NCBI GenBank assembly: GCA_012295275.1
Contig: CM022672.1
Span: 15,562,001 to 15,626,000, forward strand
Reading direction: 5' to 3'
DNA length: 64,000 bases
DNA from: Chrysomallon squamiferum
Taxonomy: Eukaryota > Animalia > Mollusca
Positions 25,570-64,000 of the stretch are shown piece after piece. Within the stretch, counting starts at the first letter, position 1, and every line of letters starts with the position of its first letter. Under the pieces are notes generated by a model that did no database searches, was not told the origin of the DNA, and saw only the letters and a program-made list of their open reading frames with translations. A program made the translations under genes and the position numbers.

Positions 25570-26134
25570 ATGGAGAAACAGTACTCTGTTAAATTTTTTA
25601 CTTCATTTTTGGAAGCCTTACAGAAAGTGTGTCGTGATTTTGTTGACTTTGAAGACAGTATTGAACTCAGTGGCTACCTATCCTTAGAGATAGACAATGT
25701 GAAAAAAGAACGATATGTACTTAGTGAGATGCTAAACAGCTCAGGAAATGTCATCAGTGAAAGTTACTGCACTAAAGCCTTCAAAACAGTCAGAAAATAT
25801 CAACAACAGTCAAGTGGAAGAGAAAACATAATGCCAAGATCACAGACAGTTATGAACAGATCACAAAGAGACTCACATCATTCATATATTACAGACTCCC
25901 ATCATCAGAATTCATCTAGTTCATATGTTAATTATAAAGATCATTCATCAGATTCTAGAGTTCCAAAACAATGGGGACATGATGTGTATGGATCAAATTC
26001 ACGGATTTCTCCTCTGCGTGGCTCAGGACACCAGTTTGGAGACAGTGGTACTGGAACTCATGAACTAAAAACCTCAACTCCCAAAAGAAGTTTATCAGCC
26101 ATTGTAATAGATGATGCACCTTCAAATAAAAGAG
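25570..26134 (+). CDS. Multi-isoform transcription factor, constant exon A (~75-aa ordered N-terminal domain + Ser/His-rich linker)
   Basis: 190-aa ORF; acceptor at 25546/25547; AAAATGG start context; phase-1 donor AGAG|GTAAAT at 26134/26135. Confidence 0.88.
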
Positions 26135-26580: not shown

Positions 26581-27017
26581 GAAGAAGTGACTCTGTTCCT
26601 GATGACAAATCACTATCAGAAATGACTTCTCAACAAGGTATGTGTAAACTGGATGCAGATTCCATGCAGACTTCCTTTTCTGATACCTCACATTCTCAAA
26701 CCACGCCTCAGATGCCAGCAGCAAGCTCCTCAGCACAGTCATCTCAAGCTAATAATAACAGTAATAATAATAACCACAACATTTCATCTCAAGCATCATC
26801 TTCACATCAAAATTCAGAAAGTATACGCTTACCACTACAAATGACAATAAAAGATGAACCAGACATTCCATGTGTTGACATTGATTTGTCAGAGTTAGAT
26901 AGTGCAGATTCTATGGGTGGAAGTGACAGTGGTTCAGGTTATCCTTCAGCAGAAGGAACATCTTCAGGAGCTTACAGAATGGCAGCAAATAACCAAGGAA
27001 CATCTGAAACTTATCAG
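26581..27017 (+). CDS. Multi-isoform transcription factor, constant exon B (S/Q/N-rich linker, IKDEP motif)
   Basis: Acceptor TTGCAG at 26580 continues exon A in phase 1 (G|GA-RSDSVPDDKSLSEMTSQQ...) with no stop; ends at phase-0 donor CAG|GTAAAT 27017/27018. A+B = 1002 nt = 334 aa. Confidence 0.88.
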
Positions 27018-35392: not shown

Positions 35393-35458
<66 letters not shown>

Positions 35459-36218
35459 CATAATTTAGAAATATTTTGATACATGTCTAGCTGTATTTGT
35501 CTCTTACAGATTATTACATATCAGTATATATTGTATTAACTTGTATATATTACAAATATTATTATCATTGGTATAATTGATATTTGCCACATATTTAGTT
35601 ACTGCTCATGTTTTATTAAATCAAGTACTTGTTTAAACATTTTAATATTGTTGAAATATTCCTGAAAGATGTTAGGTTTTTCTTTTACAAAGTTTCAGTA
35701 CCCCACACATTTGACATTTGCTTTGGAGTTTAAAAGTTTGTTACTTATAAGACTTTGGTAGTTTGTTAGTTCAAAAATTTTCATGTGCTGTTATAATTGG
35801 CTTCATTATTTGATTTTAATGTTATATATATATATCTTATTTATTTATTTATTTTTTTAAATAGTTTTTGAAGTCTAGTTTCTTATTAAGTTCCACTCTA
35901 TGGTGAGGAGTTTATCACAGAAAGATTTCTCGTTAATTGATTGTTGTGTGTACGTACATAAATTTGTTGTTTCATTACATGAGTATACTACTGGTTATGA
36001 TAATGATAAAGTTTAAACTAAAATATATGATCCCTTTAAAATTTTATTTTTGTTATTATTTTTGTTAATTATTTTTATTATCTTGTTATTATTATTATAA
36101 TTATTGTATATAATAAAAAAAACAAAATTGTTAAAGACATTTTATACATTTACAAGAAAAACTGTCGACTTTGTTAATGTTGGATGTTTCTATGACACCC
36201 TTCCTCTGGTTTCTGCAG

Positions 36219-36464
36219 AATATTGCGAGGTCTTGCAGTCGGAGAACTCTTGCCATGCAGAGTGCGCTTACTGCAGTTGAGGAAGGCCTTCTGACTGTCA
36301 GTTCTGCAGCCAGGGTGTTTGGATTAACACAGAGCGCAGTGTATTACAAAGTCAAGCATCATGGTTTGTTACCATTAGTGAGACGTGGAATACAACCTGC
36401 TTTAGTAGGACGGATGAAATTGAGAATTGAAGAATTATTGGCAGTCTGCAACAAAGAATCTTAA
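36219..36464 (+). CDS. Variable terminal exon V3, pipsqueak-type HTH
   Basis: Same acceptor motif, phase 0; NIARSCSRRTLAMQSALTAVEEGLLTVSSAARVFGLTQSAVYYKVKH... Confidence 0.88.
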   Translation, partial: NIARSCSRRTLAMQSALTAVEEGLLTVSSAARVFGLTQSAVYYKVKHHGLLPLVRRGIQPALVGRMKLRIEELLAVCNKES

Positions 36465-38133
36465 TACTTTTGTAATTATTTGAAAACATTATTTTATAAA
36501 GATTATTCAAGTCTGTATGATTATTATTATGATTATTATTATTTATTTTTTTAAATGTTTGTTTATAATTTACAAGATCTCTGTTGTGAAAAAAAAAGTA
36601 TAATTTCTCTAGTTTCTCACATAAAATCTGATCTTTATGCACCTTCAAACTTAGTAACATAAATTTTATAACAGCATCTAAGAGGTCTATAAAAACTAGT
36701 TGCATTATTTCTTTGGAAAGTTCAATAATTTTTTTGAATATATATTTTCTTTTAATAGATAGGCTGGTGATTTCTATAATGTGAATCATCCATTTTTGCA
36801 GTTTATAATTCCTTTATAATATTACTCTCTTTTGAAAATAAGAATCAAAAAAATTATTTAATATTTTTATAGAATATAGAAATAAAGATTTGAACATAAA
36901 ATGTAGCTCTAACTGTTTAACACAGAGGATCAAAGTTATAATTTTCTTCTGTGTTCAGAGGAATAAAATACTGAAGAGAAATGTAGCCTTACTTATAGTA
37001 TTATATTTTATTTAATACATCAACATTTATACACACAGCATATATAGTTACATTTTGTAGCTGTTATATACAATAGTGTTAATAGGTTTCAAAGCAACTG
37101 TACTACAAAATGAAAATCAGTATGTTGGATCATAGAAAGTTACAGAGCTGTTTAAATTAAAATAATTAAATATGTCACAACTGAATTCAAAAGTTCTCAT
37201 ATGGAAAAAAATTTGTAGCTAAATTGCAAAAGTAAGAGCTTAGTTCACTGTGTTTTTGTGTATGAAACCAGCAATTTAAAGTGAGTAATATCAATACTGA
37301 TATTTTCACTAAATATTAATGATACACATTTTCACCACTTGATTATATTTGACATTTCCAGTTCATACCATTCTTTTTATTATTATTATTATTATTATTT
37401 TTGTTACTTTCATTGTTTGAATTTATTTCACATTGTGTTCATCAGAATAATAAATTGTTACTGATAGTTATGTAATACAAATGTAGAAAAAACAATAAAT
37501 ATTTCATATGATGTTAATCACTTTGTTGTGAATGGTTATTTTGAGCAGTACTGTTTTAGTGAGGTTTTACAGCATAGAATAATAATTTAAACTTCAAACC
37601 AGACTGTAAACAGTTCAGATCCAAATTTACATTGGTGTCATTATTTCACTGGTCTCATATAGTATTGCATGCATACACTTTAGTTTTGTATTTTCTTGTT
37701 AAATCTAAACGTTTACACTGATGCAGATATTTTATCTATAAACATAATAAGAAAAGCATCATCATCTATGTTATGGAGAAAAGTATGTCATATTGAATGC
37801 AGATTGTGTATGTGGAAAACAAGTAAAAAAAAAAGAAGGCATTTATATAATGTAGCAGATACATTCATACTGATGCATTACATTTGTAAATAAGATGGCA
37901 CGCATACCATATAGTAGGCAGAACATTTTATACATTTAAAAATCTCAGTAATCTAAAAAATCTTCTGTTTAATGTACAAACTATTGAATGCAGAAATCGT
38001 AAATTAGAAAATATAATAATATAAATAACCCTGCATAACATACTCCAGTCCCTGCCAAAGAATCCCATCTATCTAATGTAGCAGATTACATCATACTGAA
38101 TGATGCTCAGATCACTTCCTCTGGTTTCTTCAG

Positions 38134-38400
38134 GACTTACCACTCAAATACATCAGCCAGAGGACACTTGCCATGCAGAATGCCATTACTGCTGTTAAGG
38201 AACATTTGCTCACTGTAACATCAGCTGCAAGACTGTTTGGTGTGTCCCAGTCAGGCCTGTACTACCATATCAAGAATAAAGGTCTGCTGATGACTGCTCC
38301 AAGAGGAACCCAACATACACTGACAAATGACATGAAGAAGAGAGTAGAAGAACTTCTTGAACAATGTCAACTTGGATTTAATTCTAATTTTGTCCATTGA
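38134..38400 (+). CDS. Variable terminal exon V4, pipsqueak-type HTH
   Basis: Acceptor CTTCCTCTGGTTTCTTCAG, phase 0; DLPLKYISQRTLAMQNAITAVKEHLLTVTSAARLFGVSQSGLYYHIK... Confidence 0.88.
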   Translation, partial: DLPLKYISQRTLAMQNAITAVKEHLLTVTSAARLFGVSQSGLYYHIKNKGLLMTAPRGTQHTLTNDMKKRVEELLEQCQLGFNSNFVH

Positions 38401-39346
38401 TGTATATACTGTAGTTTGTCTTTAGGTAGCCTTGTTGATTTTAGAAATAATGTAATATTAACTTGACTGTAAAGAGTTGCATATTGTAAGAACAGTGTTT
38501 TAAATTGATAACATATACCCTCTGCATTATAACAATGCTGAAACAGTTATATGTACAATATGTAGAATAGTAAAAAGTGTTTTATTTAAATTACAATTTA
38601 GTGCAATTTACTTTCATATAGCTCAAGTTTAAAATATAAAAATATATCAGTGATATGATGCATGGGGGTGCAATGTCACAGATTGTAGATGAATCATGTT
38701 AAAATAAGAGTAATTTTAGCATATATATTCTTTAATTAAGATTTTGACAGGTTACACGAAAACACAAAGAACATGTTTTATTGACTGATTTCAGCAAACA
38801 ACATGTATAGACATGAAAGTCAAGATATATTAAAAACTATTGATGGCAAAAAAAAAAAAAAAAAATCAATGCAATGGTCTGTATTAACACGCTGTAACTC
38901 AAAACTAAATTGCATGACATCCAACTGTTTATCCTATGCTTCCCCACAATTTTTGACCTGATTTATATAAATAGATATTTTAATATTTATTGTAAATTCA
39001 TTTTTATATATATGTTAATAATATATGTTTTAACAGATGGAATCATAGTATTCATAAACTACTCACATAAAAACTCACATCATTATGAAATATTCCAAAC
39101 TATGCGAGCATTTTATTATTTTTTTCATTTTATATGGACGTTTATAATTTTTTGGTTTCTATGAGGGTATTTAATAATTTCTTTGATTTCATATGGACAC
39201 TTTATCTTTTCTTGATTTTATAAGGACATTGTATCTTTTCTTTGATTTTAAAAGGGCATTAATTGTATTGATTTTATAAGGGCATTTTATAATAATCTTT
39301 GTAACTCATTGCCTGGAACTCAGACACCTTCCTCTGGTTTCTGCAG

Positions 39347-39613
39347 AATTGTTTGACAGAAGATCTTTGGTGTCGGCGTCGAAACAGGTACCCACCGGTT
39401 GCTATACAGAATGCTGTGGTTGCTGTTGAGGAGAGAATACTGACTGTTAGTAGTGCTGCAAGGATGTTTGGTGTACCACAGCAGACTCTGCATCACAGAG
39501 TGAAGACATCAGTCACAACGCCAGTGTTGACGGGCCTACAGCCCACGCTGTCAGAAGAAGAAAAATTAAGGCTTTCAGAATTGCTTTCATGGTCAAAAGA
39601 AGGATTGTCCTGA
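39347..39613 (+). CDS. Variable terminal exon V5, pipsqueak-type HTH
   Basis: Same acceptor motif, phase 0; NCLTEDLWCRRRNRYPPVAIQNAVVAVEERILTVSSAARMFGVPQQTLHHRVK... Confidence 0.9.
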   Translation, partial: NCLTEDLWCRRRNRYPPVAIQNAVVAVEERILTVSSAARMFGVPQQTLHHRVKTSVTTPVLTGLQPTLSEEEKLRLSELLSWSKEGLS

Positions 39614-39929
39614 AATGTTTGGTCAAGAATTATCTGGAACCTATTCACTGCAAACTATCTATTTTACCTAAAAAAAATAATGATAATGCTATTCAAAATA
39701 ATGAAAACAAGTGGAATATTTTGATGTAAAATAATCATCTATATTTACTGTATTTATTTTATTTTATTTTATTTTATTTTATTGTTAGTTTAAAAAAACT
39801 TAAACAACGGTTCATTGAAAAACCTTACAAAATTTGTTCACAGTGGTTTGATGGCCAATGGTGTCATTTGATATTTATAATTGTTTTTATTTATTTATTT
39901 TCTTTTATTACTATTACTATTCTAACTAT

Positions 39930-39981
<52 letters not shown>

Positions 39982-40538
39982 TTTAATATAAACTGATTGT
40001 AGTGCTTTTAGTGTTTGTCAGACTTAACCTGTCACTTGCAAAATGTGTGACTTCAATACCACTTTGGTTAAAACTTATTTTAATTTGCTTTTAAATGTAT
40101 AAATCAAGTCTGATATAATAGTTAATCATGACAACATTTAATCTTCTAAGATGTATTGATATCACATATCTACACAGCATATCACGTGAATAGTCAAAAG
40201 AAAAATAATTTCTTTGAAGATGTTAAAAAGCCACATACTGTACCTGTTAAAACATTTTGTTGGGTGGGCTTTTTTTTTTTTTTTCAAAAATTTGTGATGT
40301 GACAGAATATTGTATTTAAAATCTTATTTATTTTAATTATTAGAAGAAAGATAGTGCACAATGGAACATGTTTTTTTTTTGTGTGTATGTTTGTTTTTGT
40401 TTTCTTTGTTATTTTCAAATTATTTATCTGAAGAAAAAAAAATAATAATAATTAGTATATTTTTTAATTTTTAAAATGTTTTTTTAAATATTGTTATGAG
40501 TTTTGTGGGACTCAGACTCCTTCCTCTGATTTCTGCAG

Positions 40539-40799
40539 AATCCTTCAGTGGACCTGTTTCGCAATCGTCGCTATCCAGCTATTGCTCTGCGGAATGCCTT
40601 AATTGCTGTCCAGGAGAAAATATTGACTGTTAGCAGAGCTGCCCAAATGTTTGGAGTGCCACAGAAAACATTGTACCGTCAAGTAAAACGACTGATTACA
40701 AACCCTGTGCTCACAGGCATACAGCCTCCTCTCACAAACAAAGAAAAGTCACGACTCTCCCAACTACTTTCATGGACAAATGATCAAGTCAATTCTTGA
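40539..40799 (+). CDS. Variable terminal exon V6, pipsqueak-type HTH
   Basis: Acceptor CTTCCTCTGATTTCTGCAG, phase 0; NPSVDLFRNRRYPAIALRNALIAVQEKILTVSRAAQMFGVPQKTLYRQVK... Confidence 0.9.
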   Translation, partial: NPSVDLFRNRRYPAIALRNALIAVQEKILTVSRAAQMFGVPQKTLYRQVKRLITNPVLTGIQPPLTNKEKSRLSQLLSWTNDQVNS

Positions 40800-41390
40800 C
40801 CTGAAAAATAACATTTTAACTTTTAAAAAAATTATTATTGTTGTTTCATTCTACATTCATATATATCAAAAGGGTCTGTTTTCTTATTCTCATTTTTAGT
40901 ATATAATTTATTAATTATTACATCTGTTTCAGTTTCAGTATGTAAATTACATTTAATTTTAAATCATTTTACATTCAGATAGTGAAAACATGTGTTTCCT
41001 TTTTGGTAATATCTTTAATTTTTAAAAAGTTATGAATTCACAAATAATTTGTAACTCATATTGTCTCTGTTAATTACATTTGTTCCATAAGGAGATATTT
41101 TGTGGATGTAATACTATTAAAAGAGTTCTGATAGAAACAGCTGAAGACTTCATTTGATGCATTTAGATAGTCAACCATTGATGTTGAATATTTGTGCTGT
41201 TATATTAATAATAACAGTGATTAATAAGAAATTGTTATCATAATAATTTGTATTTGCATTGAATACAGAATGTTATATAGTCTAGTTGTGAAATTGTCAT
41301 TTAATTTAAATTATATATTTACTGACAGTTATTTATAATAAAATTTAGATATATCCTTGTGTTCCATTGTTTGAATTTTGTCTGTAATTT

Positions 41391-41404
41391 ATTATTATTA
41401 TTAC

Positions 41405-41464
<60 letters not shown>
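41391..41464. repeat. (ATT)n microsatellite
   Basis: Direct reading. Confidence 0.95.
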
Positions 41465-41465
<1 letters not shown>

Positions 41466-42715
41466 TTAAAATATGAAAATATGGATTGTTGTGATGAATA
41501 CTGTTAAGATTTGTTTTGGATAAAGTCTGGAGTTTTCACCAACACTTTTCTTTATTGAAGATTTTATTTCTTGTCTTTAGCATTATAAAATCTCTGCCAT
41601 GTCTTCATAGACACAAGAAAAATTACCCTTTGTTTCTCTGAAACCTTCCCTCACTTATAACTGACAACATAATCTTGATGTCTTTTAATCCAGGAAATCT
41701 GTAAAAGCTGAATACAGTTTGTAATGAATTTTAAGATAAAATTTACAGTTTGTTTTTTAAAACTATTGATAAAATATGTGCATCAGTACACACCAACATA
41801 TCTGGGTTTCAGTGTAAATATATCACTAGTAAACTGAAGTTTAAAAAAAGTGGATGTAATTGTGAGGTTTGTATAAAGTTGTCATTTGAAATGGCACATT
41901 TATATGACTGTACCAAGGAAAAGATAAAATTTAAAAAAAAAGTTTTTCATTTGTATTTTGAAAAAAAAACCCAGTTATTTATAAAGGTTTTATTAAAAGG
42001 ATACTTAATTTTTTTAAGAGTTCCTTTCTGTCATTTTGTAGTGTATGTTTCTAAATATATATATATTCCAAATTTGGAATCCATACCTGAAATAGTTTTC
42101 ATGCGGCATCTTCCCCAATATGTTTGAATAGTCAGAAAAATGATATGTGATAAAAAACCAAATGACATTTTCTAAACCATATTACCACTTAATATGGCTT
42201 AAGGGGTGATGTTATGCATTGTTATAAAGTTATCTGTATGCATATGGAATTCCTTTTTAAAAAAACCTGAAATATTTATCACAAAATATAAACATTTTAT
42301 ATTCATTTTCTAAATGGTCATGTCAGAAACAAAAAATAAGTTTTGGTTTATTCAAATTTTATCATTTTTCATCTAGCATGTTCCCTTATTCTCACTGTGT
42401 ATATTTCACGGTTTTCTAGTATTGTCGCTTATCATGTCAAAGGACAGAACTTGTATACAAGAAAGTAAATTATGTTTTAGATAAGTGAATAACTCCTAAT
42501 ACATGTATGATTCATTTTGTTTGGTTAGAATTGTAAATTACTTCATGATCATTATTCAAGTTTGGGTAGATTTCACAGTACTAAATAAATGGGAGAAAAG
42601 GATAAAATCACAGTGAAACTAGTTAAAAATGATGAGCTAAAAGTTAACAAATGTTAATATTAATTGTTACCATGTTACTCGCGTACTTCTTAGAATCTGT
42701 ATCTGGTTTCTTCAG

Positions 42716-43096
42716 AGTTGCCTGCAGCAGACATTTCGACGGACTCAGTGCCAGTACTCTCCTGTTGCCATGGAACACGCTTACATGGCTGTTCAACAAG
42801 GCAAAATGACAGTCACTGCTGCTGCCCGAAAGTTTGGTGTCCCTCAGCCCACACTCCACGCTCGCTTCAAGTTTGGGCGTGGTCCAGGAGTCCTGCGCCG
42901 GGGACGCAGACCAGGGATGTGTTGCAGTTTCTACAAAGGCTTGCCAACAATGGTGCAGAATGAAGTGCCAGATCTAGAGAGTATTGATATGTGTAACAGT
43001 GGTGTTGATGTTTCTTTTGATAGATCTTCTTGTGAAAACTCGGCAGATGCTTGCAACACTCTTGTGCAGGAATTGATGCCCGGGGGTACAGGATGA
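42716..43096 (+). CDS. Variable terminal exon V7, pipsqueak-type HTH with acidic tail
   Basis: Acceptor ATCTGGTTTCTTCAG, phase 0; SCLQQTFRRTQCQYSPVAMEHAYMAVQQGKMTVTAAARKFGVPQPTLHARFKFGRGPGVLRRGRRP... Confidence 0.9.
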   Translation, partial: SCLQQTFRRTQCQYSPVAMEHAYMAVQQGKMTVTAAARKFGVPQPTLHARFKFGRGPGVLRRGRRPGMCCSFYKGLPTMVQNEVPDLESIDMCNSGVDVSFDRSSCENSADACNTLVQELMPGGTG

Positions 43097-45045
43097 ATAA
43101 AAATGGAGTTAATGTCTTTTTCTTCTTTTTTTTTTTTTTTCTTTTTTTTTTTTTGCATGTTAAATGTTTGAACACCTATATGTGTGTGAAGTGACTAGTA
43201 CACTGAGTTCTCTGTTCTTCTGGACGACCAGACATTGTCATAGAACATTCCAAAAGAAAAATACTAATAAACAGAATAGGATATGTTGTTTTTGCATTAT
43301 CAGAAAGCAGAAGTATGTGTAAATATATGCGTTTAAGAGATCTTGTTTATATTTGTGTTTATTTTACTTATTTAGTTTTGATATTATTTTATTTTATTTT
43401 TTTTTTTTTTTTTTTAAAGATACAAATTTATATTGAACTTTAATACCAAAATCCAAAATAGGTCCCAACATAGTATTATTTTAAATATACCTTTGTCCTG
43501 CTTAAAAAGCAGTTTTAAATCTTCCTTGAATCATCCAATATTCTGTCTTAGGGTGAGACTTGTTACATGTATGTGTACAAATTTGTCTCAGATGTGCTTA
43601 CATTTATTGCTTTGGGTCCATTTCTCATTTTTCCTTTTTTTTTTTTTTTTTTTTTTTTATATTGCTTTATATTGCAGATACCTCTCATAATATGTAAGAA
43701 CATTTATTGTCTAAATTAAAGCTGATTATACCATCTTCAATGTATAATATTTGTCCTCACTAATAATATTATATATATATATATATATAAAATCAGTTTG
43801 GGGCAAAATATTTTATGGCAGTTAGTCCCATATCATCCATGTTTATCCCTCCCTGTGAATTTTGGGTTAAAAACTATCTCCTTTTTAACTTTATATATAT
43901 TTTAAATAATGATTATATGAATAGTAATGAATAATGTTGTTCAACAAATATAGGATTGTTGAGAATGATTCAGTCAGTTTTTTTATTTGTTTTATTTTCT
44001 AATTGCTTGTGAAACTTTTTTCATTAAATTATACTTTTCAGTTGTTGATCCTGTATAGAATATATTTATAAATAATTATTTAACTATTTTATATATAATA
44101 TTAATTAACACTTTTTGCACAAAAAATTGTTTTGCTGTATACAAAGAGGAATTCAAGATAAATAATTAAACTCTACATTATATCTGAAGCAGGTAAAAAA
44201 AAAGGTTGGGAGGCCATGTAACTGTAATCTGAAATTACCCTTGTGTCTCTTTGGGAAATACATTGATATAAAATTTTTAAATTTCATGTTTTAGAAATTA
44301 TATTATGTTGCTAGTATAGAACTATAAGATGTTTTATTTGTTTATTATATTAAATTATTTGCATAGGTGTATTAAAATAACTAAATATGGTATTATGAAT
44401 AAATACAAACGATGTACTGGACTTAATTAGTAAGTGTTTGGAATTTAAATTCATTTTATGAGTCATTTCAGCACATACACACATAATTGTATAGATTTTT
44501 CTCTTATATCAGCAGCTGATATCTGATGTTTATTTTTCAGACAAAAATGATGTTTAACTATTTTATTTATGAAATGTAACATGTTAGTTCAGTAGGATTT
44601 AGTAAACATTTAGAAAAATATAAACTATTAATCAAATTTAATAACATTATAGAGGTGGTTATTTGAACTGCAGAGTTACTGTTTAGAAAACATACAAATT
44701 TTCAAATATCCACTGACTTATTAATTATGTAAATATACAATCTGACAGAAATCTGATCACAATGTTTTGTTGCATGCCTCATATTTACACAATTAAATTC
44801 AGTTCATATATTTTTTTGTAATATTTTTATGTATTATATTCAAACCTAATGTGTTTGTATTGATGCAGATACTCTTGGATTGAAATGTATAACAAATAAT
44901 AGTTAGAATAGTTTTTACAAAAAACGTAACTCATCTATCAGATGTAAAAAACCCAGCTTAAAGTACTAGATAAAAAATCTTTATATAATGTGGAAGTACA
45001 AAAAACATTCTATAAAAACAGAAATAATTTAAATAATCAGATAAA

Positions 45046-45095
45046 CTTTGTATTATGAACCTCATATGACCTGATATGAGGTTCATAATACAAAG
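45046..45095. repeat. Perfect 22-bp inverted repeat with 6-nt loop
   Basis: CTTTGTATTATGAACCTCATAT-gacctg-ATATGAGGTTCATAATACAAAG. Confidence 0.95.
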
Positions 45096-45209
45096 CAAGA
45101 AAAAAAATTAAAAATTAAAATGTAGCTGCCAGATAAAGTGATAAAATTTAACTCCCAGATAAAAGTTCATATTGGATGATGCTCAGATCACTTCCTCTGG
45201 TTTCTGCAG

Positions 45210-45467
45210 AATTCACTGTCATACATCAACCTGAGAACCCTTGCCATGCAGAATGCTGTGACTGCTGTGAAGGAACGCTTGCTGACTGTAACCTCAGCTG
45301 CAAGACTGTTTGGTGTGTCGCAGCCAGGTTTGTACTACCACATAAAGAACAAGGGTCTGCTGGACATAGCACCGCGAGGAATCCAGCACATCTTGACAGA
45401 CGAAATGAAGAAGAGACTGGAAGAACTCGTTAAACTCTGTCAACCAGGGAAAAAATCTGATATTTGA
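45210..45467 (+). CDS. Variable terminal exon V8, pipsqueak-type HTH (close paralogue of V4)
   Basis: Acceptor GCTCAGATCACTTCCTCTGGTTTCTGCAG, phase 0; NSLSYINLRTLAMQNAVTAVKERLLTVTSAARLFGVSQPGLYYHIK... Confidence 0.88.
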   Translation, partial: NSLSYINLRTLAMQNAVTAVKERLLTVTSAARLFGVSQPGLYYHIKNKGLLDIAPRGIQHILTDEMKKRLEELVKLCQPGKKSDI

Positions 45468-45679
45468 TATAAATCTTGTTCACGCTTTTATTTAGAGTAG
45501 TATATCAGTTATCATTGTTGTGTGGTCTATGTGTATCCAGAACTTCGAACAATATGAATACTAAACAGTTGTGTATTCCAGTTAGTAAAAATAAAATTTG
45601 TAGTACAATGATATAAGCTATTTAAGGGAATTTTTTTTTCTAATTTCAGAGTATTAAATTAAAACATTTTTCAAATATG

Positions 45680-45721
<42 letters not shown>

Positions 45722-46069
45722 CATAATGGGAAATTTCATGTCATATAATGGATCTTTTATTGGGAGGTAATTTAATACAGGTAGTATATTTAAAATAGCA
45801 TCTTATGAATGCTTTTTAAATGTTTGAAAACAGTTTCAGTGTATGTATAGTGTTTTTAAACACTGGATTCAAAAGAATAGTTAAATTACTTTCTGAAACT
45901 GCAATTATGTTCTTGCATTAGTTTTCATCAGCATTTATTAAAATAGGATTTTTAACTTGAAATTCTAATGGCATTTTCATGTTTTAAAAATATTTATCAC
46001 AGGTTTACCTGGTAGTTGTTCACTTTAAAAATAATTATAGTATTGGTTCTGATTCTTTTACTGATCATA

Positions 46070-46106
<37 letters not shown>

Positions 46107-48312
46107 GTTCTTCTTTTCCAATCATTTCCTCTTCTTCTCACAATTACACACACACACATAAAATGGATTTCATAAAAACAATTTTGTCAGGGAAATATGT
46201 TTAGTGCAATAATAAGTTTCTAATTGTTTATATTGAAACTCTTCACAGGTATACATTTTTAATATAAATTGATTTCTGTTTTGTGTTATTATATAAATAA
46301 TTACTACAGGTTTTTAATTATGTATTGAACAAAAAGAAAAAAATGGCATTTAATTGCATGTTTCCCTAATTGTTTAAGGGCTACATTTAGCAATCATTAC
46401 AAAATGTAATCTCTTGTTATGTTTGTTTGATGTTTATTTTTTAAATACAACATTGACCAAAATCTATAGAAATCCTTTTTCACTGTTTGATTTCTTGTAA
46501 AAACTTCTACAAAAAGTATTAACATTATTAAGTATTAAGTCAATATTTAAACTGCTTTAAGAACTTTATTATTGAATTATTTTAAATTGAATTACCTCAT
46601 TAGTTAAATTGTCTTTGTACAGCTCTTGATGTTTTAATGTATATGCTTTGATGTAGTACAGCAATATTGGTAGTTATTATTTTCTAAATTGTTAGCAAAA
46701 AATTTGGATACAAAAGGTTATATTAGTTATGTTGTCCATTTTTAATATGAAATATTTATGCAACTGTATATCATGTCTTGTTTTCATAATATTTATTTAT
46801 TGGGCATTTGTACTTTAAGTTTCATGTCTAAACTGCTTATATTATTATTGATGCATTTCATTTCAAGTAATGACACACCAAAGAATGTTTTATTTTTTAA
46901 TTTTTAATTTAAAAAAAAGAAATGTATGGGTATTTTTAAATACTTCCTCATATGAACAGGGCCAGTAAGATTTCATCAAAGGTTCAAAGTGACTTGGATT
47001 TTATTATATTGAAAGAGAAGTTATTCTTATCTAATACCGGAGAAAATATATCTGTAATTTCCAATTGTACAAAATGATTATAATATTACTGGTATAAGCA
47101 GTTGAAATATGTTTGATATCTATAGTTTTATATGTATTTCATTGAGATCAGTATTTTTACAAATGCAGATTTCATGACTTGTGAGCCTAAATGTTCAAAT
47201 AAAACATGTTTGTGAAATTAAACATGTAACTGTTATTAGTTTGAAGCATCATAAACTCAGTATATCTTGTGCTTTTTATTTGTCTCTTTGGTCTTAAATT
47301 CCCCATAAGTCTGAGTATGAGTGAGTTGGTGTTTGTGTGTGTCTGAAAAAAAAAAAATAAAAAAAAAAAAATGAATTTTGAAGTAACTTGATTATATATT
47401 GCAAAAAGAAACAAAATCATTTTTAACTGCACATGCCATATATAATGAGTGGGGAGTTATCTTAAGCAAAGATCATCCAATTTTTGAAAAACTACAGCAT
47501 GAAAAAGATAAATACTTTGTTTTATGTATATAGACATGATAATGATTCTTTTTCTATGATAGAAAATCCTGTTTATTTTGTGTTCATTTTGTTTACTAGA
47601 ACTGTATACTCTTGTATACTATTAAATAGATAAACAAAAATTTGATGGTGTTTATTTTCTTGTCTTTTCTGTATGATATGCAGCAGCCCATTATCATAAT
47701 ATGATAATTATCATTGTGATAAACTAAAATAGTGAAGTGTTATAATTAAATTCAGGTAGGAACTGGATTCAGATTGAAATATTCCTGGAAATATATTAAT
47801 TCAAATGAGTTGATTACTAAAGAAACTTTAGTTCATTGGAAGGATACTTGTACTAACACATTCAACAGATTTCTGTTTTGATTTATTATTATATAAAACA
47901 TTTTAATTAAAAATCTGTTAAATACTGGTACTGTTGAAATGGATACTTTATATTTATTGGGACATTCAGAAATTTCTTCTTAATTTTATTGTTTGTTACG
48001 GAAATTCAAACTATAGATAATAATTATTTCTGATTTTAAGTTATAAATACATCTTTACAAGAAGAGCTGTAATATATTTAGAAACACCTATATAACAAGA
48101 AATGTAACATTTTGATTTAGAAACATACCATTACACGAAGAGGTATAACTTTTTATTTGGAAACCTGTTTTTACATCAAGAAACATAACATTTTGATTTA
48201 GAAACATATCTGCATCAAGTGTGTTATATTTTTGTTTCTTTACAACAACAACAACAATCCACAAATATTTGTAAAGAAAATTTTGTCTGAGATTGTGTTT
48301 TGGTTTCTACAG

Positions 48313-48540
48313 AATCTGACATGGAGAAAACCAGTGCAGCACTATTCTCCTGAAGATATGAGGAATGCTTACAACGCTGTAAGGCAAGGTTCGATGAAAC
48401 TGTCTGAAGCCTCCAAGTATTATGGCATTCCTAAACAGACTTTGTTTGACAGAATTAAATTTAACAGAGGGCCTGGCATACTCAGAAAAGGAAGAAGCAT
48501 TTTGATACTACCTTCACTTATAAATACAGGACACAACTAA
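48313..48540 (+). CDS. Variable terminal exon V9, pipsqueak-type HTH
   Basis: Acceptor TTTTGGTTTCTACAG, phase 0; NLTWRKPVQHYSPEDMRNAYNAVRQGSMKLSEASKYYGIPKQTLFDRIK is a canonical psq pattern. Confidence 0.92.
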   Translation, partial: NLTWRKPVQHYSPEDMRNAYNAVRQGSMKLSEASKYYGIPKQTLFDRIKFNRGPGILRKGRSILILPSLINTGHN

Positions 48541-49274
48541 AACAAAAACTAAAAATTTAATCAGAAATGGTAATGAAAATAATTCTATGTTTCATGGATA
48601 GTTTAACATTTAATCTAAAGAAAAAGCCAACCCAGTTTATCTACAGATTCACTCTCACCATGATGATTTGAAGAAGAATAATAGTTTTCCCTGAAAAAGT
48701 TTGTAAAACTGTAATTTTATTTTGGAATCTTCTGAGAATGGCAGCACCTCAAGACGGGCTTTTATTTTTTTCATAAAATTTGAATTTCATTTTTAAAATA
48801 CTATTCTTTAGACATTCATTGGAAGGAAGCCCAATATTTTTATGGGAGTTATCCAGGAAGGTGAAAATGTCAACAACAACAACAAAAAGACACTCAGAAA
48901 ATAAATCTATATAATAAATATAGTAACATCTAAGAAGTTAAGAGTCAACAATAACTTTGTAGCTGTCTGAATATTTTAATTTCAAGAACTGATGACTGTT
49001 CTGTTTGCTATATGTGTTTCATTTTGACTTTGACATTGTTATTAATGAAGTATCAGATTTTTTACATTTCATATTTTAAAAGTGACCAAATCTGGAATAC
49101 CATTATTCATAATACTGGGTACTTTGACTTTGAGAGTCATAAATATTATATCTTCATGTCTTGCAGATGATTCCTTTCTAGTCCTATCTAGTTGATACCT
49201 CTATTGTCTTGCTGATTTTCCTCTAGATCATTTACCTTGTATGGTTTACACTTCTCTCAGACATAAATTTAAGG

Positions 49275-49310
<36 letters not shown>

Positions 49311-50852
49311 AATAATAATTTCAAAATTTCTGGACATTTGGTTCTGTTTTGTTCATTTGTTATTTATTTTATTTATCCTCAGACATCAATATATTTCTTA
49401 GTTTGTACAGATGATACTTGACATTTCTGAAATACAGTTTACTGAAAAAGGTAGAATATACAAAATATAAGTTTTGGCTGAATGTATTGAAACTAAGAGA
49501 ATAGATGGTCAAAACTCTGACAGCATTAATTGAAAGTACTTGTTTGTACATCACCAGCTTAGTATTAATAATTTGTATTGTATGTTGTTAGCTTTAATTT
49601 TACTAATTAATGAACTTCCAGCAAATTTGTCTTTATTTTTAGTTATATTTTGAATAATCACAAATATTTTCTGTTAAAAAACACACACACACACACACAC
49701 ACAATTTGATTTGTATTCTTGCAATATTTTTCTTACGCTTATGCAGTGTTATTTTTTATTTTAAAAATATTTTTCATACATTACATTTCTTGCTCAAACA
49801 GTTCTGTCTAATGTTTTGACTGATTAATATCTAATACAATATACACTGAATATAGCCATAAACTTAAGCATAGTGTGCTGTTGTTTTACTTCTGTATTAA
49901 AAGTCTTTAAAATGTTTTTTACCAACTAAATGGCAAGAGAAGGCTCTGTTATGAACATAATCAAATCATAATCTATACAAATTGACTGAAATAATATTTA
50001 GTGATTGGTACTACCCTTCATGAAATGCCTAAATAAACTTTTTATTAATGCTTCCAATGATGAAAATACTGAATAGAACACAGGCAGAAAAACCTGCAAC
50101 AAATAATTTTGGCTACTCTGATTAAATTGTTTCTATACATTATACTACTTTGTGAGATAGGAAAGATGTTTAGAAAATTGGTAATGTTGGACATTTTGGA
50201 TGAAATGAACTAAGCATTTAAACTTATTATCATTATGATAATAATAATTATTATTATAATTATTATTATTACAACCACATGCTGTATTAAAACTAAGGCA
50301 GTTGATGAGGTGTCAGTGTAGGTTATTTGTCAAGTCTTAACAAATCAGATGTGTTGTAATTGAACATTATACAAAAGCATAATAGTATTATTCATGTTGA
50401 AATTAAAAATTATGCTGAGCTTTTAGCATACATAATTTCACCAAACCTATTAATGTTTCACTCATATGGCATATGTTGTAATTATACATTTACAAGGTTT
50501 CATATATATATGTACAGCTTAAGAAAATACTTGTAACATATTGCACAGAAATTAAGTGGACATAACTAAACATTGTACAAAAACCTAGTAGAAATAACCA
50601 AACACAACAGAAACTTCACTGGACTGGTAATTAAACAATGTACAAATATTAGTACGCATATCTAACATCTAACTTGTAGATAAACATATAGAATTTAAGT
50701 AGACACATACAACAACACTATAAAATTTTAAATAGACATAACTAAACCCTGTGTAAAAATTTAAACCGATGTATAACTAAAGTGTATAAAAATTTAAGTA
50801 GACATGTACCTTAACGTTGTCGTTCACGTATCAGTGTTTCTGACTTCTTCAG

Positions 50853-51065
50853 ACGCGGTGGTGCAAACTGCGACATAAGTACACGCCAGAGGAACTGCGT
50901 GCTGCCTACGAGGCTGTCGTGGAAGGCAAGATGACGGTCACAGCAGCCGCGAGAATGTTTGGCATTCCTAGACAGACTCTGAAGGATCGCTTGAAGTTCC
51001 AAAGAGGACCTGGCATACTTCGAGGAGGAAACTCTTCAAAGGCATTCCAGACTTCTAGAGAATGA
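50853..51065 (+). CDS. Variable terminal exon V10, pipsqueak-type HTH (absent from ORF track)
   Basis: Acceptor TTCTGACTTCTTCAG, phase 0; TRWCKLRHKYTPEELRAAYEAVVEGKMTVTAAARMFGIPRQTLKDRLKFQRGPGILRGGNSSKAFQTSRE*. Confidence 0.92.
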   Translation, partial: TRWCKLRHKYTPEELRAAYEAVVEGKMTVTAAARMFGIPRQTLKDRLKFQRGPGILRGGNSSKAFQTSRE

Positions 51066-58260: not shown

Positions 58261-59136
58261 AATATATTTATTAGTCATACTTAAAATGAGTTATTCATCT
58301 GTGAAAAAGAAAATAAATAGAAAACATTCTAAAATACGTTTACTCTTTATAGCTATTCCTAATTTCAAGATGATGTTTTTATTATTATTATTATATGAGA
58401 CAATAAATGATTCTTATATCAATATATTCCATGTTCATCATTATTTTTTGACATTCTTCATTTTTTCTTATTCTTCTTCATCTTCTTCTTCTTCCACTTC
58501 TTCTTCTTCTTCTTCTTCTTATTATTATTATTAAATATTATTTATAACTTCTTGTTATTAAACATTCTAGGAGCTGAGTAAATATTCTCTCTTTTTTTTC
58601 TTTTCTTTTCTTTTTGTTGTTTTGGTCATTTTGAAATATCCATGTGGTTTTAGAAAACTGTTTTAATTATCTGACTGTAATATGGATGTTTATAATATCT
58701 TAACTAAACTTCTATAAGATATTACCTTTATCTTCCCCTTGGAAAGTAGAATTCTTTTGAATTGAGGATATAACAGGTTATGTTTTGAAATTTACTATTA
58801 TATGTATGTCTATATATGTATGTGTGTATGGTATGTGTATATGTATGTATATACGTGTGTTTGTATGTATATATATATATATGTGTGTATGAATGGGTAG
58901 ACTAAGATGACCACATTGTTAAACTACTTATGGTAAAGTTAAGTAAACTATGGTGTCCAATGTTTGGACAGAAGGTCATTTTCTGCATTAGCCACAGGAT
59001 CATGTTAACAAGTTTCCACTTACAACATTATTATACATTAAATATATGATTAACATATATTCAAATATATAAATATTAAATAAATCGTTCATTAGTTCTT
59101 TTAATTTTTACAGATGAGTAGCACTTTACACTCCAG

Positions 59137-59377
59137 ACTAATAGACACGCCAACAGTTTCACTGACTTCCCTGGTACACAAGAACAACTTAGCGGAAAGC
59201 GAGAAATGCGAGCCAGTGCTAGTCGAGATCCTGCTGGGACTCTGCTGAACCTTCTCATTGACCTGGTATTCACACCGACAGAGCTAGCAAACTCTAATGG
59301 GCTCGGATTGAGGTTCAGACACTCCGAAGACCCCAATAAGAAACCATTAGACCCAGCCAAAGTTGAAGCTATCAAAG
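59137..59377 (+). CDS. Variable exon V13a, N-terminal part of a BEN domain
   Basis: Acceptor ACTCCAG at 59136 is phase 0; TNRHANS...AGTLLNLLIDLVFTPTELANSNGLGLRFRHSEDPNKKPLDPAKVEAIK has the BEN hallmarks (L..vF..eeLa.sn..G ... LDp.kv.aIk); phase-1 donor AAAG|GTAAAT 59377/59378. Confidence 0.85.
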
Positions 59378-60759
59378 GTAAATGTTACACAGAAATGTTT
59401 TGTTAAAATGGATCTCTGTGTAGGGTGGAATAGTGAGTATCCTTTCATTGGATTGTTTTTCTAGTTCTTTAAATCTCTGGCAATAATAGGGGATAAGAAA
59501 AAAATGTATAACATGTCCCTGAAAAGGCATAAAGGCTGCCAATTTCCTCTTTTCTTTAATTTCATTTCATGCTCATAGATACATAAAATGTCTGACATAC
59601 TCATAGACTGAGAAAATCATTGCAAATTCCCTATAAATTCAGTTCATTAGGCTAATAAAAATTATATTTCTGTATTGAAATAATGTCAGAAAATGGCTAC
59701 TTAAGTGGGCTTGTTATATTTTCATATTAGGAAAGACTGAGGTCTAGTTATAACTATATAGTTTAGGCAAAACAAAATTTGGCTATTTTATGTACTAGCA
59801 GAGATACATTTTTATATTATCTTGTCCCTTTTTAATTCTTTCCTTTTGATTGTTTCATCATTTGTCTGGATGAACACTTGAAATGATTTGAGCACTGAAA
59901 GGATTTTTTTTTCAAATAAATTAAACTTAGAAGTTGAGGAAAAGGGTTAACATTTGCTTCTCTTTTTTATTTTTTCATTCTTTTGTGTTTTTTTGTTGTT
60001 TTTTTTGCCCCCTTTATTTATGGTTATTCTGTAATTTTCTCTTTCTTTTTTATGTCAGTGACATTTGTCCATTCACTTTTTTTAACATATTAGTTCACAA
60101 GTTTTCTAAAGATAAAAATAAAATTGAAATCTGGCTATGGCAGTTAGTGAAAAAGAAACTGTTTTATGATAGTTATGTGTAAAACATAATTTGTGAAAAA
60201 AAAAAAAAAATTTTTTTTTTCCTTTTATTCTGTTGCTGATGGTGGTATAGCTGGTTTTCAGTTTTAATATTGATGAAAGTACAATTGAAATTAATGCTAG
60301 GGTCAGAAAGTGAAATATTTCAGGAATGTAGATTTGAGAGATTTGGACCATTGTGGCTTTTTGTGTTTGGTATTACAGCCTTTTGAGATCAGCCATTCCA
60401 AGATATTTGACTAACATTAACCAAAACTCCGGAACTATTATCAAATTTTGTGGTATTTACTTTTCTATCTATAAGAAAGTGCACCCCTTGCTGCTAACCA
60501 AAAAAGACTAAACTGTGGGTTTTATCTCTCCTCATCTGCATGATCATGAAACATATAGTATTCAAATGTTGATTAAAATCAGTTTGTATGACACTAAATA
60601 AAATATTTTTTCTCCTATTCAAACTAACATGCAAATGACAAAATTCTGTAGCATACCATTTAAATGTCTTCTCAGTTAAAATGTGTTGGGTATGACTCAA
60701 AATAAAATATTTTTTTCTCAGACTAACACACGAATGACAAAATTGTGTTTGTCTTTCAG

Positions 60760-60896
60760 ATTATCTCAACTCAGTTTGCTTACAGAAAAATTGGCTAATG
60801 TTGTCACTCAAGGATGTCAATCGGAAGTTTACAAACAAGTGCTCGGGTGCGCGTAGACCTCGATGCGATTACAGCAAAAAGTCACAACATTACTGA
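60760..60896 (+). CDS. BEN C-terminal alternative exon V13b-1
   Basis: Acceptor GTCTTTCAG, phase 1; (D)YLNSVCLQKNWLMLSLKDVNRKFTNKCSGARRPRCDYSKKSQHY* completes the BEN domain. Confidence 0.85.
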
Positions 60897-61615
60897 TACA
60901 CAGCTTATATAGCAGCTTTCTCAAAATACCTCAAATCCCTTTACTCCAAGTGTTTGATACTCAGTTGACATTCATTGGCTGTTTCAATTTCTACCACAGT
61001 TGCTTGTTCTTTTCTTTTTTTCTCTCTATTTATAAATATATACATGTGTGTCTTTGTTGTTGTCTGTAAGAAAATACATAGTGACCAAATTTTCACTGAG
61101 TTTAATACAATGTGGAAAACAGTATAGAATCTGTTGTTTTAACAATAATTAGCCATCTGTTTTTATTAGTAGTATTTATTTATTTATTATTTTATTTATT
61201 TATTATTATTATTTCTTTTCTTTTTTCTTTTAATGTTTGCATTTTGAACTCAATTTATTAAAGTTCAGTAAATATTATTTTTATTTGTCAATGCTCAAAC
61301 CATTTATCTATTGATTTACATTGTATACTATTAGTACAGGATCATTCTTCCAAAGAAAGAAAATCCTTAATCTTAAAATTACATTTTCTCTCTCATAATA
61401 ACTTAAAAACCTTTCAGTTAAATCCATTCAAATCATTCAAAGGAATAAAAAGGGAAAAGATTATCATTTTGTTTATTATTTTTTTAAACAAATATAATAT
61501 TATCATTATTGCGATCCTCATTAACATCCTTATCATCATTATTGTTGTTATTTTCATTTCCTGGATGTGTGTGTAAAAATAGAAATCATTCCAAGAAAGA
61601 TCATCATTATTATTA

Positions 61616-61892
61616 TAGATTGAAAATGCTTTATCTGAAATGTTTGGGACCTGAATGTTTCTGATTTTGGAGTATAAGGAGATAGCTCAGAATAGGATCT
61701 AAAATAGAAATTATGAATTCTATTTTTTATTTCACATACAGCTTATGCAGATAATCTCAAGGATTTGTTATATAATATTTTTTATACCTTTGTGCATAAA
61801 ATAAAATTTGTGTGTGCCATATATCTGAAAACTGTAAGATATTACTACTTCTGCTGTTCAAAACATTTTTCAGATAAGGGATCATCAATCTT
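61616..61892. mobile_element. Degenerate non-autonomous pogo/Tigger-type DNA transposon (MITE)
   Basis: Imperfect terminal inverted repeats TAGATTGAAAATGCTTTATCTGAAA ... TTTCAGATAAGGGATCATCAATCTT, flanked by TA. The left end resembles Tigger4-like termini as I recall them (CAGGTTGAGTATCCCTTATCCGAAATGCTTGGGACC). Confidence 0.6.
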
Positions 61893-62062
61893 TATTATTT
61901 TTATATAGATTTTCTGTGTGTGCTTGTGTGTGTGTGTAAACACACTATCCTGTGTCTATGAAAAGGCAGAAACTATTCCAAGAGATAAAGAAACAAATTA
62001 CATAACAGTGCAGCTAACTGAAGTGATGAGTGGACTTTTCACAACTCTGTGGTTTATTTCAG

Positions 62063-62184
62063 ACTACATGCAGACAGTCCACCTGCGACTTGGTTGGGAA
62101 CTGCTTTCATCAAAGAAACTGCACAAAAAATTTGCTAACAAAATGTGTCATGCAAGAAGAGATCTGCGTCTTGTCATCACTTAA
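62063..62184 (+). CDS. BEN C-terminal alternative exon V13b-2
   Basis: Acceptor TTATTTCAG, phase 1; (D)YMQTVHLRLGWELLSSKKLHKKFANKMCHARRDLRLVIT*; aligns without gaps to V13b-1. Confidence 0.83.
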
Positions 62185-62324
62185 TATCAGTGACACTTTT
62201 ACAAAAATATACACTTCATATTTAGTTGTTTTATTGTCAGAATATATTACGTTTTTGTGAAAAAAAAAGGTTGAAATGAAGCAACACATCTTTTTTTTTT
62301 TTTTTTTTTCTTCCTTTTTTTCAG

Positions 62325-62440
62325 AACATCTGCAAACAGTGTCTGTTCAAAATGGCTGGGTTCCTCTTCAAGAAAAGCAGATTAATAGAAAGTTTAACAA
62401 CAAACGTACAAACTGCAAGCAAAAAATTTGGCCTAATTAA
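62325..62440 (+). CDS. BEN C-terminal alternative exon V13b-3
   Basis: Long poly-T tract + CAG, phase 1; (E)HLQTVSVQNGWVPLQEKQINRKFNNKRTNCKQKIWPN*; aligns without gaps to V13b-1/2. Confidence 0.8.
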
Positions 62441-63550
62441 TACGTAATCAACACCATAAACTGCCAAAGGTTGTCACTTCTTTGTGTCATTTTCCTTTCA
62501 AAACATGTTCATAAAGAAAATGTTTAAAGATGTAATAAAATTACTGTTATATTAAAATTGTTCTTTTTGTTTCTTTTCTTTTATGTGTGCAAATGTGTGT
62601 GTGTGTGTGTGTTGATGAATAGTCCATTACAATCATCATAAAATCATAATTGATACCATAATCATCAAACACAGTCTTAAGAAGTGGAAGTGTCTTCACT
62701 CATATCATCATCATTACATACAAAACACATGACTGGAGTGAATATAAATAATAAAATTAAAATAGTCAGGACAGGTCCTTAATCAGAAAATGTTGACTTG
62801 TTATTTTAGTAACTATTTAACATTTACAATTTAAACAAGCTCTTCAGCAGTCATCTGAATATTGTTTTATTTTAGAGCATGTATTTCTTTTGATTTTTTA
62901 ATGACTGTAAATAAATGCTTTCTGGAGTTAATTGAGTTATTTTATTTGAAGTAACACACTATGTGGTTAGAAGTGACATTGGCTGAATGCTTCTGGAGAG
63001 TGGAAAAAAGAAAATACCTTCTTTTTATTTTTATTCTTTTTTAAATACTTTTTTCTATTGATTTTTTTGCAAAATTTATTACAAAATAAGATATATTAAT
63101 AACTGTATATCAATGTTATTTGTTTCTTGCTCAAAAAGAAAAATTCATTTACTTGTTTACTGAACAAGAATACTGTAGATATAGACTTAAAATAATTGTC
63201 AGCCATTTATTTATAAAACAGTGTTAAAATATTTTCAGTCTTCATCTTCTACTCATGTTAACTGTTAACCTCATGAACAGTTTTAACAACTGCAGACAAG
63301 ATCACTCAGTGTCGTGATTCTTGTCAACTCTTGAATCCATTACTTCATTATTTAAGTGGTTTATCATTTTGAACTGGTCTGTTTTGCTAATTGAGTTAAC
63401 TGTTTCTGATGGCATTTACTAAGTGACATGGTTAATGTATTTCTATAAAGGTTTCATGTGAAGTTTAACTGTAGAAAACCACAGAGTTCTTGAAAACAAC
63501 CAAAACAGGAAGAATCTGAAAAAAAACAGTTATACTACCATTTCATAAGT

Positions 63551-64000
63551 ATGTCTTCCATTCTGGCAAGTGATAGTGTCCTTTACAAATCAAACAAACG
63601 TGTGGGATTGGGTGATATTACAAACACAGTTTGTGATAAAGAAATATCCAGAAGTGACACCAAGTGTTTTTGTCAATCATCTGTTTTCCCCGAGCCTGTA
63701 AAGATCTCAATGTTGAAGAAACAATCATTGAGAAAGAAATATAGCATTTCTGTGGAAGTTACTTCAGAAGAAATGCTAGTAAACAGAGAAGATGTTGGAA
63801 TAGTAAATGTAAAAGAAAATGTTTCAGGAATGCTTGTTGTCAGTAATGCATCTCCACTTGATGTGAATGAGAAACAACTAACAAAGACAGAAAAAACAGA
63901 GATGAGTTTTCAAGCAAGTGTCATTTGGGATGGAAACAAAATGCTTGATAATATTGTCAACAACTTTGAAAAAGCAATAAAATATGATTTGTTGCAGAAT
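63551..64000 (+). CDS. Open reading frame running off the window end, unknown product
   Basis: Frame is open from 63494 to 64000 (ATG at 63551: MSSILASDSVLYKSNKRVGLGDITNTVCDKE...), which is unusually long for this AT content. No domain recognised. Confidence 0.5.
   Translation, partial: MSSILASDSVLYKSNKRVGLGDITNTVCDKEISRSDTKCFCQSSVFPEPVKISMLKKQSLRKKYSISVEVTSEEMLVNREDVGIVNVKENVSGMLVVSNASPLDVNEKQLTKTEKTEMSFQASVIWDGNKMLDNIVNNFEKAIKYDLLQN

What the first reader, a model, noticed from the sequence alone, without database searches (positions are those of the whole stretch)
59137..62440. Second, nested tier of choice: a split BEN domain with three interchangeable C-terminal exons
Seen: exon 59137-59377 encodes only the first part of a BEN domain and ends in phase 1. 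Three downstream phase-1, stop-terminated exons align without gaps (DYLNSVCLQKNWLMLSLKDVNRKFTNKCSGARR / DYMQTVHLRLGWELLSSKKLHKKFANKMCHARR / EHLQTVSVQNGWVPLQEKQINRKFNNKRTNCKQ). They keep W and KF.NK but vary in the neighbouring residues. Established: in the Insensitive-type BEN-DNA structure the C-terminal helix lies in the major groove. Inference: splicing swaps the recognition helix within one domain scaffold, giving sub-domain reprogramming of specificity nested inside the larger array.
Basis: partly seen in the sequence, partly recalled or inferred. Interest (0 to 1): 0.85.

Follow-up and report, generated by a model that had tools for sequence, protein, structure and literature searches.

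The report
Splice-swapped BEN recognition helix in snails
A snail transcription-factor gene splits its BEN DNA-binding domain across an intron and carries three alternative last exons, conserved in a related snail (eleven in a sister gene), so splicing likely swaps the predicted DNA-reading helix and would give isoforms with different targets.

Summary
Largely confirmed. A phase-1 intron after 59377 splits a BEN domain; exons at 60760, 62063 and 62325 each complete it. One RNA contig shows the junction to 62325; the other two junctions were not seen. The Gigantopelta aegis orthologue (LOC121383526) has annotated isoforms with all three halves, 1:1 orthologous (25-26 of 33 residues; 48 of 54 in the last helix). 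Its paralogue LOC121383032 has the same split with 11 full alternative halves. By alignment to NACC1 and low-confidence models, the variable exons hold the major-groove helix and the shared exon holds the minor-groove loop. The intron is old and shared with sturgeon. Correction: the shared exon most likely starts at 59114, and the window sequence has a 2-nt frame break near 59200 (assembly error or allele, unresolved). Different DNA motifs are inferred, not shown: at three base-reading positions the exons read N-S-R, N-C-R and N-T-Q, so the first two may bind alike and the third lacks the key arginine. It works like FoxP exon swapping nested in a mod(mdg4)/lola-like array without a BTB domain. 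Not found in print.

The parts
59114..59377 (+). Shared BEN exon (N-terminal part of the domain up to the middle of predicted helix 4, with the loop equivalent to the NACC1 minor-groove loop); phase 0 in, phase 1 out
   Evidence: Pfam BEN 3-45/76; start by homology to G. aegis, 13/30 aa from 59114 and 53/57 aa downstream of the break; donor used in RNA contig 17 of run X8
59192..59207 (+). Approximate place of a 2-nt frame break in the window sequence relative to the G. aegis orthologue; assembly error or real allele unresolved
   Evidence: no run covers 59100-59215
59135..59136 (+).
   Evidence: 1 of 23 identical
60760..60896 (+). Alternative last exon a, coding part; orthologue of G. aegis isoform X1 (P0004)
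   Evidence: 26/33 aa to orthologue; junction not seen in RNA contigs
62063..62184 (+). Alternative last exon b, coding part; orthologue of isoform X2 (P0001); no AATAAA/ATTAAA before exon c
   Evidence: 26/33 aa; junction not seen
62325..62440 (+). Alternative last exon c, coding part; orthologue of isoform X5 (P0006); lacks the arginine equivalent to NACC1 R469
   Evidence: 25/33 aa; RNA contig joins 59271-59376 to 62324-62432
25570..26134 (+). Common coding exon with the unnamed mollusc N-terminal domain
   Evidence: 75/77 aa to G. aegis in the domain; no Pfam family at cut-off
26581..27017 (+). Last common exon; phase-0 donor that serves the first-tier array
   Evidence: all 13 G. aegis isoforms seen share the first 317 residues
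33739..57375 (+). First-tier array: 10 psq-type HTH exons and 2 C2H2 exons, all on the + strand, upstream of the BEN branch
   Evidence: (8 of the 10 psq-type exons scanned)

Best explanation
A gastropod transcription-factor gene has a BEN domain split by an old phase-1 intron and three duplicated last exons, of which each mRNA likely uses one, so that the predicted major-groove helix is exchanged on a constant scaffold and at least some isoforms likely differ in DNA motif or affinity. First tier: the common N-terminus splices to one of 13 phase-0 exons. Second tier: if the BEN exon is chosen, its donor picks one of three acceptors. Shown: exon anatomy, one junction in RNA, 1:1 conservation, recurrence in a paralogue, age of the intron. 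Inferred: mutual exclusivity (each exon has its own stop); choice by cis competition between acceptors and poly(A) sites, with exon b probably sharing exon c's poly(A) site; origin by tandem duplication of the last exon behind a pre-existing intron; DNA binding and changed specificity; and that the frame break near 59200 is an assembly error.
For: Junction to exon c in an RNA contig. G. aegis RefSeq models X1, X2, X5 hold the three orthologous halves. Orthologues 25-26/33 against 11-18/33 across paralogous exons. Last-helix part 48/54 identical against 29/45 for the first part (p 0.007) and 167/240 for the linker (p 0.004), while tails diverge after about three residues. Among the window's exons pS 0.79-0.88 against pN 0.41-0.44. 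Paralogue LOC121383032: 12 of 16 isoforms share the BEN N-half and diverge at the same residue, 11 with full halves; all 17 first residues are D, E, G or V, as a phase-1 G demands. Helix 397-413 spans the junction at 404/405 and helix 421-435/437 lies in the variable exon. In NACC1 helix 5 makes the major-groove contacts through D462, T465, R469 (PMC11472053 passages), which align to positions 26, 29, 33 of the variable exons. 13 different residue sets at positions 26/29/30/33 among 14 G. aegis halves.
Against: No binding data. Only 1 of 3 junctions seen; X9 contigs run unspliced through the donor and through acceptors a and b. RefSeq isoforms are predicted models whose read support I did not see. 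At positions 26/29/33 exons a and b differ only by Ser/Cys. Those columns are not the most variable among the 14 halves (1.9-2.2 bits against 2.9-3.1 at positions 9, 13, 14, 19, 25). Whole C-half identity (77/99) is not significantly above the linker (p 0.14), and the 15/16 boundary was set by me after seeing the alignment. Models are low-confidence overall (mean pLDDT 40-42; 66-86 in the last two helices). The frame break is unexplained. Some BEN domains bind protein, not DNA (PMC8887127 section 11).
Confidence: 0.65

Rival explanations
1. All three exons are spliced but recognise the same or nearly the same motif; they differ in affinity, partner surface, C-terminal tail or 3' UTR, and exon c may be a weak or non-binding competitor.
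For: Position 26 is N in all three; a and b share R32 and R33; the minor-groove loop is constant; variation is highest at positions not mapped to base contacts; the R469A change nearly abolishes NACC1 binding and exon c has Q or H there.
Against: Exon-specific residues of the last helix are fixed between species (48/54); the paralogue's halves vary widely at positions 26, 29 and 33.
Confidence: 0.2
2. The BEN branch is damaged in the window's lineage: the frame break is real, so transcripts from 59114 stop early and those from 59137 lose the N-terminal strand and helix.
For: 2-nt excess in the exon; the common exons align to G. aegis without a frame change, so such breaks are not common in this window.
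Against: 53/57 residues downstream of the break and all three last exons stay conserved and open; spliced RNA exists; 3 of 4 variant sites in the last exons are synonymous and the fourth is D to E.
Confidence: 0.08
3. Only exon c is a real isoform; a and b are rarely spliced leftovers that gene prediction joined.
For: Only the c junction was seen; contigs over acceptors a and b are unspliced.
Against: a and b are as conserved as c (26/33 each), have intact acceptors and frames, and are annotated as separate isoforms in G. aegis. The two RNA runs are shallow (depth 3-10) and 81 rows were not shown.
Confidence: 0.05

Closest known systems
FoxP / FOXP1 alternative forkhead exons (PMC3002244 passages; PMC5423462 passage on FOXP1 exon 18b)
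   Same: A duplicated exon replaces part of one DNA-binding domain, including base-contacting residues of the recognition helix; for FOXP1 a changed DNA preference is reported.
   Different: Two alternatives in a forkhead domain; here 3 and 11 alternatives in a BEN domain, nested under a first tier of whole-domain choices.
Drosophila mod(mdg4) and lola (PMC4387717 passages)
   Same: Common N-terminal exons joined to one of many 3' exons; at least 31 isoforms for mod(mdg4) and 20 proteins for lola.
   Different: Those carry a BTB domain (recalled) and use trans-splicing; here no BTB match, all exons lie on one strand in order, and the second tier cuts inside a domain.
Type I BEN domains: NACC1, Insensitive, BANP, BEND4 (PMC8887127 sections 11-12; PMC11472053 passages)
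   Same: Best solved match is NACC1 BEN (E 1e-4); vertebrate BEND4 is among profile hits; long loop before helix 4 and basic last helix.
   Different: No alternative C-terminal half was seen in the 10 deuterostome clusters looked up (most have 1-2 members, so this is weak).

Membership tests
BEN domain (PF10523) | Whole-domain match above the Pfam cut-off | tested here: met
   G. aegis isoforms 34.0, 36.8, 28.1 bits against 23.2; the window's N-half alone covers profile 3-45
Type I (DNA-binding) BEN | Long loop between helices 3 and 4 and a long basic helix 5 | tested here: met
   Alignment to NACC1; predicted helices 397-413 and 421-435/437; net charge +5 to +7 over positions 16-37
Type I (DNA-binding) BEN | Same fold by structure comparison | tested here: inconclusive
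   The search with the 456-residue low-confidence model was filled by N-terminal helical matches, best Z 6
Type I (DNA-binding) BEN | Sequence-specific DNA binding | not testable with these tools
   Needs SELEX, PBM or DAP-seq
FoxP-like exon swap inside a DNA-binding domain | Homologous duplicated exons, each completing one domain from one donor | tested here: met
   one junction in RNA
FoxP-like exon swap inside a DNA-binding domain | Isoforms differ in DNA preference | not testable with these tools
   Inferred from residue mapping only
mod(mdg4)/lola-type BTB loci | Common N-terminus with many alternative 3' DNA-binding exons | tested here: met
   13 G. aegis isoforms share 317 residues; window array
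mod(mdg4)/lola-type BTB loci | N-terminal BTB domain | tested here: not met
   No BTB match in Pfam scans; the atlas gives only unnamed mollusc clusters as close matches
mod(mdg4)/lola-type BTB loci | Trans-splicing | tested here: inconclusive

The most novel reading that the evidence does not exclude
These snail genes hold a splice-programmable library of recognition helices: one BEN scaffold with 3 and 11 interchangeable helices, each reading its own motif, inside a gastropod family of a dozen or more array genes whose unnamed N-terminal domain plays the part BTB plays in insects. It would be a natural variant series for working out the BEN recognition code and an independent origin of mod(mdg4)/lola-style diversification with an added sub-domain tier.
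Probability: 0.4. Interest if true: 0.8.

Novelty: new variant of a known kind. Interest (0 to 1): 0.64.

Why it matters
Known swaps inside a DNA-binding domain (FoxP) offer two choices, and known arrays (mod(mdg4), lola) swap whole domains. This locus combines both, and the paralogue takes the inner tier to eleven. Fourteen natural helices on two nearly identical scaffolds make the open question of how BEN domains choose their motifs directly testable. It also shows how an old intron in the middle of a helix can become a hinge for exon duplication.

Tried and rejected
No whole genome is held for the window, so the paralogue and the DNA beyond 64000 could not be read in this species. Searches for close relatives of the BEN part returned one cluster only, G. 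aegis (1 of 209 and 1 of 150 candidates). Two scans of metagenome contigs found nothing. No run covers 59100-59215, so the frame break is untested. Docking-site/selector pairing: 110 inverted-repeat pairs, the 25 longest shown, mostly AT-rich, with no common docking arm for the three acceptors; not supported, not excluded. U1-type pseudo-donor: not enriched. The tree of 17 halves (33 columns) pairs each window exon with its G. aegis orthologue but only one of the three pairs has strong support, and deeper forks are open, so I cannot say whether the two genes' arrays expanded independently. Fold search uninformative. Self-association of the N-terminal domain was not modelled and is not claimed. 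Earlier scan findings: none in three look-ups. Literature searches (listings and abstract starts only) showed no description of this locus or of a split-BEN array; subscription journals and supplements were not seen.

Full report
Observation. The window holds an AT-rich (28% GC) animal gene on the + strand. The N-half covers Pfam BEN positions 3-45 of 76. A profile of the three orthologous C-halves finds 3 of 2877 six-frame segments, these three, at E 2e-19 to 6e-17, with the next at 0.28. The exons are 34-48% GC against 23-29% in the introns.

One correction. The shared exon most likely starts at 59114, after a stronger acceptor. The exon is 2 nt longer than the orthologue predicts, with the frame break near 59192-59207. 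Downstream of the break 53 of 57 residues are identical. No run covers the site, so assembly error, allele, or rescue by the 59137 AG stay open; I favour an assembly error by inference from the conservation.

What the gene is. The closest relative is G. aegis LOC121383526, close but not identical. The 13 of its isoforms that I retrieved (numbered up to X14; X9 not seen) share 317 residues and then carry psq-type HTH, C2H2 or BEN ends. The window has the same plan: two common coding exons, then 10 psq-type exons, 2 C2H2 exons and the BEN branch, all on one strand. The common N-terminal domain has no Pfam family at cut-off and recurs in many G. aegis genes on one 91.7-Mb record and in Haliotis proteins with PF12012 (107 hits of 154 candidates). 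An ORF from 63494 runs off the window and looks like another gene (weak cyclin lead), and G. aegis also has three halves among the isoforms seen, so the inner array probably ends at three.

Splicing. In RNA run X8 one 215-nt contig lies on 59271-59376 and continues on 62324-62432, which is the junction to exon c (table 8). The other two junctions were not among the rows shown (81 rows were withheld). Contigs of run X9 read unspliced through the donor and through acceptors a and b, which may be pre-mRNA or DNA. G. aegis models X1, X2 and X5 join the shared half to each of the three exons; they are predicted models and I did not see their read support.

Selection. Each window exon pairs with one G. 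aegis exon at 26, 26 and 25 of 33 residues, against 11-18 of 33 across paralogous exons. Positions 16-33, the predicted last helix, are 48 of 54 identical between orthologues, against 29 of 45 for positions 1-15 (p 0.007) and 167 of 240 for the linker (p 0.004); the whole half, 77 of 99, is not significantly above the linker (p 0.14); I set the boundary after seeing the data. The same positions are only 21 of 54 identical among the window's three exons. Tails beyond the helix diverge after about three residues. Synonymous sites among the three exons are saturated (pS 0.79-0.88) while pN is 0.41-0.44. Of 4 variant sites listed in the last exons, 3 are synonymous and one is D to E.

Recurrence. 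The paralogue LOC121383032 has 16 isoforms, all retrieved. Twelve share an 87-residue BEN N-half and diverge at exactly the same residue; 11 have full C-halves and one a 5-residue stub. All 17 full halves of the three genes begin with D, E, G or V, as expected when the shared exon gives the first G of the codon. Among 12 gene groups with three or more retrieved isoforms, sharing that ends inside a domain occurred only in these two BEN genes; isoform sets for the other genes were partial.

Origin. A profile search gave 71 hits. Of the 70 new ones, 20 stop short of the last helix, and all 20 have Gly at the junction column, the read-through of a G|GT donor; two further truncated rows from one unrelated protein (P0182) were dropped and one fragment did not reach the column. 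43 of 47 full domains have a GNN-coded residue there, though Glu may be favoured for structural reasons. A truncated sturgeon model breaks at the same place. So the intron is old, and the snail arrays most likely arose by tandem duplication of the exon behind it (inference). The 10 deuterostome clusters looked up showed no alternative half at this junction, but most have one or two members.

Structure. The best solved match is the NACC1 BEN domain (E 1e-4). Models of two G. aegis isoforms put a helix at 397-413 across the junction (404/405) and a helix at 421-435/437 wholly in the variable exon; confidence is 66-86 there and about 40 overall, and the fold search was uninformative. In NACC1, helix 5 reads bases through D462, T465 and R469, and R421 in the loop before helix 4 reads the minor groove (PMC11472053, passages). 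With the chain numbering offset taken from the alignment, these map to positions 26, 29 and 33 of the variable exons and to an Arg in the shared exon. The window's exons read N-S-R, N-C-R and N-T-Q. Insensitive also uses both middle and C-terminal residues, and one BEND3 domain binds protein and not DNA (PMC8887127, sections 11 and 12). Among the 14 G. aegis halves K23 and K27 are invariant and position 32 is R or K, while positions 26/29/30/33 form 13 different sets; these columns are, however, not the most variable ones.

How it most likely works. The common exons splice to one of 13 first-tier exons. If the BEN exon is taken, its donor picks one of three acceptors and the protein gets a constant minor-groove loop and backbone frame with one of three last helices. 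Each exon has a stop, so only the first one included counts. Poly(A) signals follow exons a and c but none lies between b and c, so b likely shares c's 3' end. No docking-site pairing and no excess of U1-type pseudo-donors were found, and colinear same-strand exons need no trans-splicing, so cis competition is the simplest reading. Changed specificity is inferred: most likely for exon c and for the paralogue's set, least sure between a and b.

Comparison and verdict. It works like the FoxP exon swap (PMC3002244, passages; PMC5423462, passage) placed inside an array like mod(mdg4) or lola (PMC4387717, passages), but it fails the BTB test and so is not a member of that family. Seven literature searches (listings only) showed no description; the isoforms exist in RefSeq as uncharacterised proteins. 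Supplements and subscription journals were not seen. Verdict: a real feature, new variant of a known kind, interest 0.64; confidence 0.65 in the best explanation.

Noticed in passing
window 33739-51065: Ten psq-type HTH exons; seven share a near-identical acceptor (CTTCCTCTG-TTTCT-CAG), pointing to recent tandem duplication. The window has more psq-type exons than the 8 seen among the retrieved G. aegis isoforms.
   Followed up: partly
window 25570-25800; P0007-P0112: Unnamed N-terminal domain of about 75 residues shared by a dozen or more G. aegis array genes on one chromosome-scale record and by Haliotis proteins with PF12012; no Pfam family, atlas matches only mollusc clusters.
   Followed up: partly
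window 63494-64000: Open frame running off the window end, no Pfam match; weak atlas lead to cyclin clusters and a destruction-box-like motif (recalled); probably the next gene.
   Followed up: partly
window 9594-9851: Homeodomain fragment on the + strand (E 9e-5, just under the cut-off), upstream of the common exons; probably another gene.
   Followed up: no
window 60586-60748: About 100-nt tandem duplication just upstream of acceptor a, including its branch-point-like site (families D3 and D14).
   Followed up: no
P0117 (G. aegis LOC121383032 X15): Isoform with the BEN N-half followed by only five residues: a possible truncated, non-binding form or a model artefact.
   Followed up: no
P0176 and P0252 (Saccoglossus LOC102807301): Two models of one locus differ in the last residues of the BEN helix, downstream of the junction studied here.
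   Followed up: no
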